From NCBI RefSeq assembly GCF_009914755.1, contig NC_060932.1: DNA of 64,000 bases; one strand, given 5' to 3'. The notes under the pieces are model-generated. The model was not told the DNA's origin, ran no database searches, and was given only the letters and a program-made list of their open reading frames with translations. The first letter of the stretch is position 1; each line of letters opens with the position of its first letter. The translations under genes were made by a program, and so were the position numbers. Below are positions 27,173 to 47,903 of this stretch, piece by piece. Origin of the DNA: the human T2T-CHM13v2.0 reference genome, Homo sapiens.

Positions 27173-27187
27173 TAAAAAGGCAGAGCA

Positions 27188-30100
27188 GGTGGCTGGCAAG
27201 ATGGCCGAATAGGAACAGCTCCATTTGGCAGCTCCCAGAGAGACCAACGGAGAAGGTCTCTCTCTGCATTTCCAACTGAGGTACCCGGCTCATCTCATTG
27301 GAACTAGTTAGACAGTGGGTGCAGACCACAGAGGGCGAGCCGAAGCAGGGTGGGGCATTGTCTCACCTGGGAAGCACAAGGAATTGGGGAACCCTGTCCC
27401 CTAGCCAAGGGAAACCTTGAGAGAATGTGCTGTGAGAAATGATGCATTCCAGCCCAGATACTACACTTTTTTCACAATCTTCACAACCTGCAGACCAGGA
27501 GATTCCCTTGGGTGCCTATGCCACCAGGGCCCTGGGTTTTAAGTACAAAACTGGGCATCTGTTTGGGTAGACACAGAGCTAGCTGCAGGAGTTATTTTTC
27601 ATACCCCAGTGGCACCTGGAATGCCAGCGAGACAGAACCATACACTCCCCTGGAAAGGGGCTGAAGCCAGGGAATAAGGTGATCCAGCTCAGTGGACCCC
27701 ACCCACAAGGAGCCCAGCAAGTGAGATCCACTGGCTTGAAATTCTCCCTTCCAGTGCAGCAGTCAGAAGTCAACCTGGGACTGTAAAGCTTGGTGGAGGG
27801 AGGGGTGTCCAACATTACTGAGGCTTGAATGGTGGTTTTACCCTCACAGTGTAAACAAAGCCCCCAGGAAGTTCGAACTGAGTGGAGCCCACCACAGCTA
27901 GGCAAAGCTGCTGTAGCCAGACTGTCTCTCTAGATTCCTCCTCTCTGGGCAGGGCACTTCTAAAAGAAAGGCAGCAGCCCCAGTCAGGGGCTTATAGATA
28001 AAACTCCCATCGCCCTGGGACAGAGCACCTGGGGGAAGGAGTGACTGTGAGTATAGCTTCAGCCAACTAAAACATTCCTGCCTGCTGGCCCTGAAGAGTG
28101 CTATGGATCTCCCAGCACAGAGCTCCAGCTCAGCTAAGGGACAGACTGCCTCCTTAAGTGGTTCAGTGACCCCCATGCCTCCTGACTGAGAGACACCTCC
28201 CAGCAGGGGTCAACAGACACCTAATACAGGAGAGATCTGGCAGGCATCTTGCAGGTGCCCCTGTGGGATGAAACTTCCAGAGGAATGAACAGGCAGCAAT
28301 CTTTGCTGTTCTATATCCTGTGCTGGTGATACCCAGGCAAACAGGGTCTGGAGTAGACCTACTGAAAACTCCAGCAGACCTACAACAGAAGGGCCTGACT
28401 GTTAGAAGGAAAACTAACAAACTGAAAGGAATAGCATCAGCATTAACAAAAATAACACCCACACAGATACCCCATCTGAAAGACACCAACATCAAAGACT
28501 GAAGGTAGATAAATCATGAATATAAGGAAAAAACAGCACAAAAGATTGAAAATTACAAAAACCAGAATGCCTCTTCTCCTCCAAAGGATCAAAACACCTC
28601 ACCAGCAAGAGAACAAAACTGGATGGAGAATGAGTTTGACAAATTGACAGAAGTAGGCTTCAGAAGGTGGTTAATAAGAAACTCCTCCGAGCTAAAGGAG
28701 CATGTTCTAACCTAATGCAAGAAAGCTAAGAACCTAGATAAAAGGTAAGAGGAAATGCTAACTAGAATAACCAGTTTAGAGAAGAACATAAATGACCTGA
28801 TGGAGCTGAAAAACACAGCATGAGAACTTTGTGAACCATACACAAGTATCAATAGCTGAATCGATCAAGCAGAAGAAAGGATATCAGAGATTGAAGATCA
28901 ACTTAAGGAACTAAATCAAGAAGACAAGATTAGAGAAAAAAGAATGAAAAGGAACCAACAAAGCCTCCAAGAAATATGGGACTATATGAAAAGACCAAAT
29001 ATACATTTGATTGATGTACCTGAAAGTCACAGGGAGAATGGAACCAAGTGGGAAAACACTCCTCAGGATATTATCCAGGAGAACTTCCCCAATCTAGCAA
29101 GACAGGCCAACATTCAAATTCAGGAAGTACAGAGAACACCACAAAGATACTCCTCGAGAACAGCAACTCCAAGACACATAATCATCAGATTCACCAAGGT
29201 TGAAATGAAGGAAAAAATGTTCAGGGGAGCCAGAGAGAAAGGTAGGGATACCCACAAAGGGAATCCCATCAGACTAACATCAGATATCTCTGCAGAAACT
29301 CTACAAGCCAGAAGAGAGTGGGGGCCAATATTCAACATTCTTAAGAAAAAAGAATTTTCAACCCAGAATTTCATATCATCCAGCCAAACTAAGCCTCATA
29401 AGCAAAGGAGAAATAAAGTCATTTACAGACAAGCAAATGTTGAGAGATTTTGTCACCACCAGGCCTGCCTTACAAGAGCTCCTGAAGGAAGCACTAAATA
29501 TGGAATGGAAAAACTGGTACCAGCCACTGCAAAAACATATCAAATTTTAAAAACCCTCAACACTATGAAGAAACTGCGTCAACTAATGGGCAAAATAACC
29601 AGCTAGCATCATAATGACAGGATCAAATTCACACATATTATTATTAACCTTAAATGTAAATGGGCTGGCAAATTGGATAAAGAGTCAGGACCTTTTGTGT
29701 GCTGTGTTCAGGAGACCCACTTCACATGCAAAGACACACGCAAAATAAAGTAATGAAAGAATTATCCAAAATAAAGTGATGAAGTAATATTTACCAAGCA
29801 AATGGAAAGCAAAAAAATAAAAAAAAAAGCAGGGGTTGCAATCCTAGTCTCTGATAAAACAGACTTTAAACCAACAAAGATCAAAAAAAGACAAAGAAGG
29901 GCCTTACATAATGTTAAAGAGATCAATGCAACAAGAAGAGCTAACCATCCTAAATATATATGCGCCCAATACAGCAGCACCCAGATTCATAAAGCAAGTT
30001 CTTAGAGACTTATAAATAGACTTAGACTCCCACACAATAATAGTGGGAGACTTTAACACCCCACTGTCAATACTAGACAGATCAACAACACAGAAAATTA

Positions 30101-46760: not shown

Positions 46761-47903
46761 CATCACAGTACTTTTAACAGCTGACTGACTACTTACTCAC
46801 TTTTCCTTGCTACCAATTTCATTTTCTAATTTTCTCCTTTGAGAACACAGAGGGAAACTATTTGGTTTTACCAAATAGTTTAATGGTTGTTTAAAAATCC
46901 TCTCAATTTCTTGAATAAAAATGTACAGGAAAAAGTAGAGTCATGTTCATATTGAGATGTAAGCTTGTCTTAGTGATTAAAAAATACAAATTGTATATTT
47001 ATGTATCTTGGTGTAAGTATTTGGTGATTTTATATGAATATTAATATATCATGAACAACTAAGAAAAATCTATCATTCATGTTTCTGAAAAATAGTTCAT
47101 TCCATATTAGCCTGAGTTAATGTATTTTGTGTTAGGTTTTACGTTTCTGATGGGCAATCTGTTCAGTACTTCATATGCTTGCTGTATATGCATCACACAT
47201 TTGTATAAGATTCTTATTTTTAACTAGAAATAATCCTAGATGTACAGAAAAGTTGCAAAAGTAATACACAGAGATCCCATTACCTTTCACTCACCTTTCT
47301 TAATGGAAACCTTTTACAGAAACATAATGCAATAACATAGAGTTGAGTCTTGAGCCAGACAGGTGTGAGAAAATCTACTCCAAAAGTTCATTATATTATA
47401 TTAATAGTCTTTCTGCTTATGTTATAGCAGTGCCTCCTTCGTTTGAAAACGGGAGGTAATGGGGGCAGTATTCTCTGTACTTTGGAGTGCTTAATGTAAT
47501 CTAATAAATACACACATGCATGCTTACAGAAAACGTTCAGGGTGGCATCAGGATTTGCAGAGACTGTATTTGTGTTTTCTTTTCATTTCAATCATGTTAC
47601 CCTCGCTCTTACTTTGTTACTGTCAATTGCTGGGGCTCTAGCCTATGAGGACTTGTCTGATCTGAGCTCCTGAAATCTTGAAAGCAGAGAGTAGCTGAGT
47701 TTTTAATGGTTGTAATGAATTGTTTGAATCTCTGATATGAGGACTGTGACACATGGCTCCCAAGATACACAGTATGCATGTTCGTTGCAGAGAAATCCCC
47801 AGTGGTTGCCAATACTCCGCAATAAATTAAGCAGTGAGGAATTCTTGAACTTGCCAGTGTTGGTTGGGCTGCTCACTGCATGACATTAAAAAAACACTAA
47901 ATG

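What the first reader, a model, noticed from the sequence alone, without database searches (positions are those of the whole stretch)
27173..46775. Swapped target-site duplications reveal an L1-L1 recombination-mediated inversion upstream of NKAIN3
Seen: neither convergent L1PA7-like element has matching TSDs of its own. The 5' flank of L1-A, TAAAAAGGCAGAGCA (27173-27187), recurs as its exact reverse complement at 41415-41429, beyond the 3' end of L1-B. The 3' flank of L1-A, AAAAGTACTGTGATG (33652-33666), recurs as its exact reverse complement at 46761-46775, at the 5' end of L1-B, in a canonical TT/AAAA endonuclease context. Established: crossover between inverted L1s inverts the spacer and exchanges TSDs. 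Inference: at least the ~7.9-kb spacer (up to ~19.5 kb, depending on the crossover point) is inverted, and both L1s are 5'/3' chimeras. About 5 kb of inverted homology remains, so recurrent or polymorphic inversion ~6 kb from the NKAIN3 promoter is conceivable. I cannot tell whether it is already catalogued.
Basis: partly seen in the sequence, partly recalled or inferred. Interest (0 to 1): 0.85.

Follow-up and report, generated by a model that had tools for sequence, protein, structure and literature searches.

The report
Old L1-L1 inversion upstream of NKAIN3
Two old, facing LINE-1 copies upstream of NKAIN3 have swapped their insertion scars, the textbook mark that the DNA between them was flipped long ago by recombination; it is a tidy but ordinary example of a known process.

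Summary
Both 15-base flanks exist at the stated coordinates. Each occurs exactly once forward and once as a reverse complement in the window, and they pair crosswise between the two convergent L1s. Each L1's own flanks share only 5-6 bases.

This is the published signature of retrotransposon recombination-mediated inversion (Lee et al. 2008, PMC2603318).

New details:
- The left copy of TSD1 lies 165 bases beyond the L1 3' end of L1-B. That tail is 89-90% identical to a single chr5 locus, as expected for a 3' transduction.
- L1-B carries a 1,440-base internal deletion.
- Both L1s belong to one subfamily group.
- A candidate crossover lies at L1 position about 1820-1981, inside a high-identity tract that abuts the deletion. 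It is suggestive only.

The pair is now 86.6% identical, with a longest perfect run of 76 bases. This is below the identity of L1 pairs that flank polymorphic human inversions, so ongoing toggling is unlikely.

Orientation in other primates and in other human genomes could not be tested. Verdict: real, well explained, a known kind, low interest.

The parts
27173..27187 (+). TSD1, copy at the 5' flank of L1-A
   Evidence: Exact reverse complement at 41415-41429. Unique in the window.
27188..33655 (+). L1-A, full length (6,468 bases), coding frames decayed. Proposed chimera: 5' part of element X plus 3' part of element Y.
   Evidence: BLAST against L1-B. (aligns end to end with a chrX copy at 87%). 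(Pfam Transposase_22, Tnp_22_trimer and RVT_1 in frame fragments).
28888..29236 (+). High-identity tract in L1-A (L1 positions 1701-2049), with the candidate crossover interval 29007-29168 inside it. The partner tract in L1-B is 44717-45064, with candidate interval 44785-44945.
   Evidence: 19 mismatches seen against 38.2 expected. O-like alleles switch from B to A between positions 1820 and 1981; permutation P 0.06 and 0.13; coordinates. Suggestive only.
33652..33666 (+). TSD2, copy at the 3' flank of L1-A. It overlaps the short A-run of L1-A.
   Evidence: Exact reverse complement at 46761-46775.
33667..41414 (.). Spacer of 7,748 bases. It is inferred to be inverted relative to the ancestral order, together with the L1 parts inside the crossover points.
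   Evidence: Inference from the TSD pairing. Sizes. Contains an old L1 3' fragment, a TA array and an AC array.
41415..41429 (-). TSD1, copy beyond the 3' end of L1-B
41430..41594 (-). 165-base non-L1 tail between the A-run of L1-B and TSD1. Read as a 3' transduction carried by element X.
   Evidence: the only other genomic hit is chr5:6729980-6730141 at 90%; homology starts right after the A-run and ends just past an AATAAA, before TSD1.
41595..46760 (-). L1-B (5,166 bases of L1). Proposed chimera: 5' part of element Y plus 3' part of element X.
   Evidence: three colinear blocks at 85-87% against L1-A. (RVT_1).
44717..44721 (-). Junction of a 1,440-base internal deletion in L1-B. It corresponds to L1-A 29237-30676 (L1 positions 2050-3489) and sits in a short AGAGA-type microhomology.
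42932..43095 (-). 164 extra bases in L1-B: TA/TG/ATAC microsatellites around a 27-base duplicate of nearby L1 sequence.
46761..46775 (-). TSD2, copy at the 5' flank of L1-B, in a TT|AAAA context.

Best explanation
Two L1 copies of the same subfamily group inserted about 8 kb apart in opposite orientation. Element X had TSD1 and a 165-base 3' transduction from chr5. Element Y had TSD2.

Later, an intrachromatid exchange between the two inverted copies flipped everything between the two exchange points. This left L1-A as X-5'/Y-3' and L1-B as Y-5'/X-3', so each TSD now pairs with its partner on the other element, in reverse complement.

The exchange most likely lay near L1 position 1.8-2.0 kb. 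The inverted segment would then be about 15.8 kb, from window position ~29.1k to ~44.9k. The exchange may have been accompanied by the 1,440-base deletion that abuts that point in L1-B.

Shown: the crosswise TSDs, the anatomy of both elements, and the chr5 match of the tail. Inferred: the inversion itself, the exchange point, the link to the deletion, and the age.

The event is probably old and fixed. The arms are now too diverged to be a good recombination substrate.
For: 1. Crosswise exact 15-base flanks, each unique in the window. The elements' own flanks share only 5-6 bases. 1 of 19,936 random 45-mer pairs reached 15.
2. Both elements have genuine family 5' ends and L1 domains, and are 13% diverged. 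They are therefore two independent insertions, not one event.
3. The flank matches do not extend past 15 bases, so this is not an inverted duplication of a larger block.
4. The 165-base tail between the L1 3' end of L1-B and TSD1 matches one other place in the genome (2 of 2 candidates scored: self and chr5, 90%). The homology is bounded exactly by the A-run and by TSD1. This places TSD1 at the true end of a transduction-bearing insertion.
5. Published criterion: after such an inversion, the breakpoint elements are chimeric and their TSDs no longer match (PMC2603318 section 19). That study found 21 L1-mediated cases among 252 human-chimpanzee inversions, and 12 of 49 events came with deletions in the elements or the interior.
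6. Internal hints:
   - L1 positions 1701-2049 show 19 A-B mismatches against 38.2 expected from a star-tree calculation with same-group copies. The other thirteen 350-base windows run at 0.78-1.0 of expectation.
   - Of 158 diagnostic sites, alleles of the other reference group are private to B at 3 of 41 sites before position 1981 (A: 0). They are private to A at 9 of 117 sites from 1981 on (B: 2 of 82 covered).
Against: - No outgroup or second human genome could be consulted, so the ancestral orientation is inferred, not seen.
- The marker switch is not significant once the free choice of cut is allowed for: permutation P 0.06 for 11 non-CpG markers and 0.13 for 24 markers.
- The high-identity tract gives P 0.014 in the pre-set window before correction for 14 windows. 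The smaller P values are for bounds chosen after looking.
- A and B carry similar loads of private changes along their length, so age asymmetry gives no signal.
- A clean homologous exchange should leave both elements intact, yet L1-B lacks 1,440 bases.
- No poly-A run separates the 165-base tail from TSD1.
- The chr5 locus has no L1 upstream in this genome.
- The test for an older repeat split by the X insertion failed. The old repeats on the two sides are not contiguous in 6 of 6 other copies fetched. The Y-site flanks are single-copy.
Confidence: 0.88

Rival explanations
1. The inversion is real but arose from two double-strand breaks inside the L1s, joined by non-homologous or microhomology-mediated repair rather than by a homologous crossover. 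The 1,440-base loss in L1-B would be the scar of that repair.
For: L1-B has a 1,440-base deletion with a 5-base microhomology at its junction. The deletion sits directly next to the candidate exchange region. Lee et al. report deletions with 12 of 49 retrotransposon-mediated inversions.
Against: L1-A is colinear and complete across the same region, with no junction scar (end-to-end alignment with a chrX copy). The elevated identity next to the deletion fits heteroduplex or conversion better than blunt joining. The deletion may be an unrelated later event.
Confidence: 0.07
2. There was no inversion. The crosswise flank matches are chance, or come from an assembly error that joined the wrong L1 halves.
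For: A-rich target sites make short flank matches more likely. One random 45-mer pair in 19,936 did reach 15 bases.
Against: Two independent exact 15-base matches both sit at element junctions: one abuts the 5' end of L1-A and the other the 5' end of L1-B. 0 of 100 shuffles gave any match for TSD1. The arms differ at 13% of positions over 5 kb, which is easy for long-read assembly to tell apart.
Confidence: 0.02
3. One retrotransposition event (twin priming or another L1-mediated rearrangement) created both L1 segments and the inversion at once.
For: Porubsky et al. attribute about 85% of human inversions under 2 kb to twin priming during L1 insertion (abstract).
Against: Both elements start at the family's 5' end. 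They are 13% diverged from each other. They have different 3' ends, one with a 165-base tail. They are separated by 7.7 kb of unrelated DNA. None of this fits two pieces of one RNA copy.
Confidence: 0.01

Closest known systems
Retrotransposon recombination-mediated inversion, L1 class (L1-RMI; Lee, Han, Meyer, Kim and Batzer 2008, PLoS One, PMC2603318)
   Same: Two same-type retrotransposons in opposite orientation span the breakpoints. The elements' own TSDs no longer match and pair crosswise. The size is in the reported range: 166 to 81,189 bases, with more than half of L1 cases over 10 kb. A deletion within one element is also reported there, in 12 of 49 events.
   Different: That catalogue holds only events that differ between human and chimpanzee. 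It notes that the L1PA subfamilies involved are younger than about 20 Myr. Here the arms are 13% diverged, so the elements, and probably the event, are older. Its supplementary table could not be opened, so I cannot say whether this locus is listed.
L1-flanked polymorphic balanced inversions in humans (Porubsky et al., preprint 10.1101/2021.12.20.472354)
   Same: Inverted L1 pairs at both breakpoints, with NAHR as the proposed mechanism. Median size is 5.6 kb. 6 of 22 pairs are full-length on both flanks.
   Different: 21 of 22 of those pairs are >90% identical (median 97.2%). This pair is 86.6% identical. No evidence of polymorphism was obtainable here, and the preprint's tables are closed.
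L1 3' transduction
   Same: Unique non-L1 sequence lies between the L1 3' end with its A-run and the TSD. It has a single homologue elsewhere in the genome, and an AATAAA motif near its end. The motif's meaning is from general knowledge.
   Different: No L1 sits upstream of the chr5 homologue in this genome. No poly-A run remains before the TSD.

Membership tests
Retrotransposon recombination-mediated inversion (L1-RMI) | Two elements of the same type, in opposite orientation, at the two ends of the segment | tested here: met
   three colinear inverted blocks, 85-87% identity, 5,018 aligned positions. L1 ORF1 and RT domains.
Retrotransposon recombination-mediated inversion (L1-RMI) | Each element lacks its own matching TSDs, and the TSDs pair crosswise as reverse complements | tested here: met
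   own flanks share 5-6 bases; crosswise flanks share 15 and 15 exact bases.
Retrotransposon recombination-mediated inversion (L1-RMI) | Both elements are internal chimeras with a mappable switch point | tested here: inconclusive
   Both belong to one subfamily group: A is G-type at 142 of 158 diagnostic sites, and B at 109 of 123 covered. A candidate switch lies at L1 positions 1820-1981, with permutation P 0.06 and 0.13.
Retrotransposon recombination-mediated inversion (L1-RMI) | The orthologous locus in an outgroup has the opposite orientation, with self-matching TSDs or empty sites | not testable with these tools
   Only the window's own genome is held (one search states it has no relatives here).
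Present-day NAHR inversion substrate (recurrent or polymorphic) | Long inverted arms of high identity: >90% in 21 of 22 L1 pairs, or >4 kb and >95% | tested here: not met
   86.6% identity. The longest perfect runs are 76, 61 and 55 bases.
L1 3' transduction (for the 165-base tail) | Non-L1 sequence between the L1 poly-A and the TSD, with a single-copy parent locus elsewhere | tested here: met
   89-90% identity to chr5:6729980-6730141. The homology is bounded by the A-run and TSD1.
L1 3' transduction (for the 165-base tail) | A progenitor L1 lies directly upstream of the parent locus | tested here: not met
   no young L1 upstream in L002, only an old antisense L1 fragment downstream. The progenitor may never have been fixed, or may have been lost.
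Twin-priming L1 inversion | One insertion with an inverted 5' piece, both pieces from one RNA, and one TSD pair around the whole | tested here: not met
   two full 5' ends, 13% divergence, a 7.7-kb unrelated spacer and two distinct TSDs.

The most novel reading that the evidence does not exclude
The exchange is much younger than the two L1s. The candidate conversion tract has about half the divergence expected for the pair, which would place the event roughly midway through their residence. The inversion would then be confined to apes. More boldly, it could still be segregating or toggling in humans, flipping about 16 kb that ends 6.1 kb from the NKAIN3 transcription start.
Probability: 0.05. 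Interest if true: 0.45.

Novelty: new member of a known kind. Interest (0 to 1): 0.22.

Why it matters
The locus shows that TSD bookkeeping alone can recover an old, fixed inversion from a single genome, without any outgroup. A 3' transduction and a possible exchange-linked deletion add detail.

It adds one case to a class that is well described between human and chimpanzee and within humans. Nothing found here suggests an effect on NKAIN3. RefSeq lists no functional element in the segment (the hub's table), and the arms are now poor recombination substrates.

Tried and rejected
1. Independent proof from an older repeat split by the X insertion.
   - The left flank 26788-27171 belongs to an older plus-strand L1.
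   - The reverse complement of the spacer's right end, 41428 down to ~41245, belongs to another old repeat.
   - In 6 of 6 other genomic copies fetched, the two repeats are not adjacent. No confirmation was possible.
2. The same test at the Y site. Both flanks (46761-47160 and 33652-34051) hit only themselves.
3. Search for the older L1's own TSD running on into the inverted spacer end. There were 0 hits at 16-18 bases with 2-3 mismatches in 18000-25600.
4. Locating the crossover from unequal ages of X and Y. Private changes in A and B are balanced in every segment.
5. Locating the crossover from subfamily differences. Both copies are the same type at nearly all of the 158 diagnostic sites.
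6. Enlarging the reference panel. Searches gave tables but no loci.
7. Print searches for this locus.
   - 'NKAIN3' + 'inversion': 6 papers listed. One was read in passages; it concerns an intronic deletion about 600 kb away.
   - '8q12.3' + 'inversion' + 'polymorphi': 4 papers, none relevant by title or abstract.
The inversion lists of Lee et al. and Porubsky et al. could therefore not be checked for this locus.
9. Script failures. The scripts stopped with an error at their last window. Only the rows printed before that were used.
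Full report
**Observation**

- TAAAAAGGCAGAGCA at 27173-27187 recurs as an exact reverse complement at 41415-41429.
- AAAAGTACTGTGATG at 33652-33666 recurs as an exact reverse complement at 46761-46775.
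- Each occurs once per orientation in the window, and neither match extends by one base.
- Shuffled windows give essentially no matches even with one mismatch allowed. For TSD1, 0 of 100 shuffles gave any match. For TSD2 the shuffle mean was 0.01, and the only extra hit in the real window is a 1-mismatch copy at 13215-13229.
- Each L1's own two flanks share at most 5-6 bases, the mode for random 45-mers. The crosswise pairs share 15 bases each, a length reached by 1 of 19,936 random pairs.

**Anatomy**

L1-A (27188-33655, plus strand) is 6,468 bases.
- It aligns end to end with a chrX copy at 87%.
- Its first base is the family's 5' end. In 37 of 39 non-self hits to its first 1,100 bases, the match starts at query base 11 or lower.

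L1-B is on the minus strand and aligns to L1-A in three colinear blocks:

| L1-A | L1-B | Identity |
|---|---|---|
| 27188-29236 | 46755-44717 | 85% |
| 30677-32307 | 44721-43096 | 87% |
| 32318-33655 | 42931-41595 | 87% |

- L1-B lacks 1,440 bases (L1-A 29237-30676). The junction sits in a short AGAGA-type microhomology.
- L1-B carries 164 extra bases of microsatellite plus a 27-base local duplicate at 42932-43095.
- Frame fragments hit the L1 ORF1 domains and RVT_1 in A, and RVT_1 in B. All reading frames are broken.
- Over 5,018 aligned positions the pair is 86.6% identical, with 636 substitutions and 37 gap positions. The longest perfect runs are 76, 61 and 55 bases.

**The 165-base tail**

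L1 homology in L1-B ends at 41595 with a short A-run, but TSD1 lies at 41415-41429. The 165 bases between are not L1.
- A search of the window's own genome found two places only, both scored: the window itself and chr5:6729980-6730141 at 90%.
- The alignment (89% over 167 columns) begins right after the A-run and ends two or three bases past an AATAAA, just before TSD1.
- This is the layout of a 3' transduction, so TSD1 sits at the true end of one insertion.
- Against this, the chr5 locus has no young L1 upstream in this genome, and no poly-A remains before TSD1.

**Interpretation**

Lee et al. 2008 describe exactly this pattern. After recombination between inverted retrotransposons the elements are chimeric and their TSDs no longer match, and they used this to call the ancestral state (PMC2603318 section 19). 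They found 49 such loci among 252 human-chimpanzee inversions, 21 of them L1-mediated (abstract and section 6). 12 of the 49 were accompanied by deletions in the elements or the interior (section 7).

The present arrangement reads: TSD1 - [X5'/Y3'] - TSD2 - spacer - TSD1rc - tail - [X3'/Y5']rc - TSD2rc. Undoing one exchange gives two ordinary insertions, each with its own TSD pair.

Other mechanisms do not fit:
- An inverted duplication would pair 5' flank with 5' flank, and the match would extend beyond 15 bases.
- Gene conversion does not move flanks.
- Twin priming gives two pieces of one RNA, not two 13%-diverged elements with full 5' ends and 7.7 kb between them.

**Where the exchange happened**

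I mapped 35 other genomic L1 copies onto L1-A coordinates: 29 and 6 full-length ones chosen by 5'-UTR similarity. I then split them into two groups.
- Group G has 11 copies: L004, L033-L038, and L007, L011, L017 and L032, which share their alleles.
- Group O has the other 24 copies.
- The split was made after seeing the allele patterns.

Results:
- At 158 substitution-type sites that separate G from O, A is G-type at 142 and B at 109 of 123 covered. Both parents therefore belonged to one group.
- Private changes are evenly shared between A and B along the element, so the parents were of similar age.
- First hint: O-like alleles. They are private to B at 1431, 1543 and 1820, and private to A at 1981, 2113, 3253, 3574, 4836, 5146, 5316, 5412 and 6442. 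B has only 4028 and 4660 in the 3' part. A pre-defined marker rule gave BBB|AABAAAAA for non-CpG sites, with Fisher P 0.024 at the best cut. Allowing for the free cut, permutation P is 0.06, and 0.13 with CpG sites included.
- Second hint: a high-identity tract. A star-tree expectation from same-group copies predicts 38.2 A-B mismatches in L1 positions 1701-2049, and 19 are seen. The pre-set window 1751-2049 has 17 against 28.5 (P 0.014, uncorrected for 14 windows). All other windows run at 0.78-1.0 of expectation.
- The two hints coincide, and they abut the left edge of the deletion in L1-B.

I therefore place the exchange provisionally at 29007-29168 in A and 44785-44945 in B. That gives an inverted segment of about 15.8 kb. 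It is possible, but not shown, that the deletion arose in the same event.

**Age and present-day risk**

- The tail differs from chr5 by about 11%, and A from B by about 13%.
- If the elements are of the L1PA7 age class (about 30 Myr by PMC7449397, passages; the subfamily name itself is untested), the tract's half-divergence would put a recombination event roughly midway. The Poisson error is wide, and there is no proof that the tract marks the inversion rather than a separate conversion.
- Today the arms fall below the identity of L1 pairs at polymorphic human inversions: 21 of 22 are >90%, median 97.2% (Porubsky et al. preprint, passages). They also fall below the >4 kb and >95% substrate criterion of Startek et al. 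(PMC4344489, passages).
- Recurrent or segregating inversion is therefore unlikely, though not excluded.

**What could not be done**

- No other primate or human genome is held, so orientation in outgroups and polymorphism are untested.
- Tests for an older repeat split by the insertions gave nothing usable.
- Text searches for an inversion at NKAIN3 or 8q12.3 found nothing relevant.

**Verdict**

It is one more instance of a well-described process, probably old and fixed, with no sign of functional consequence.

Noticed in passing
window 24901-27171 (+): An older, much more diverged L1 (62% to L1-A over L1 positions 4405-6265) ends about 16 bases before L1-A. Element X therefore inserted at or next to the A-rich tail of this older L1. 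Many genomic hits to the left flank stop at window 27171.
   Followed up: partly
window 40511-41235: The right part of the spacer holds three features: an old minus-strand L1 3' fragment (40511-40795, 65% to L1-A positions 6101-6385), a ~280-base degenerate TA array (40787-41068) and an (AC)15 run (41205-41235).
   Followed up: no
window 41245-41428 (-): The spacer end next to TSD1 belongs to an old dispersed repeat: 39 non-self hits at 68-88% identity, mostly starting at the second base of TSD1. TSD1 is therefore partly made of that repeat's first bases. The family was not identified.
   Followed up: partly
L002 (chr5:6728480-6731641), match at 1497-1662: The parent-like locus of the 165-base tail has no young L1 upstream. 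Homology starts at an A-run (…CATAAAA|GTTGGG…), which would suit an empty or lost progenitor insertion site. An old antisense L1 fragment lies about 70 bases downstream.
   Followed up: partly
window 42932-43095 (-): The insertion inside L1-B is made of TA/TG and ATAC microsatellites around a 27-base exact duplicate of L1 sequence that normally lies about 90 bases further on (L1-A 32406-32432 matches B 43001-43027).
   Followed up: no
L1 positions 1270, 1346, 1732 (window 28457, 28533, 28919 in L1-A): A and B share the O-group allele at three sites where 5-6 of 6 same-group reference copies differ. This could mean a shared sub-lineage or past conversion between the two copies.
   Followed up: no
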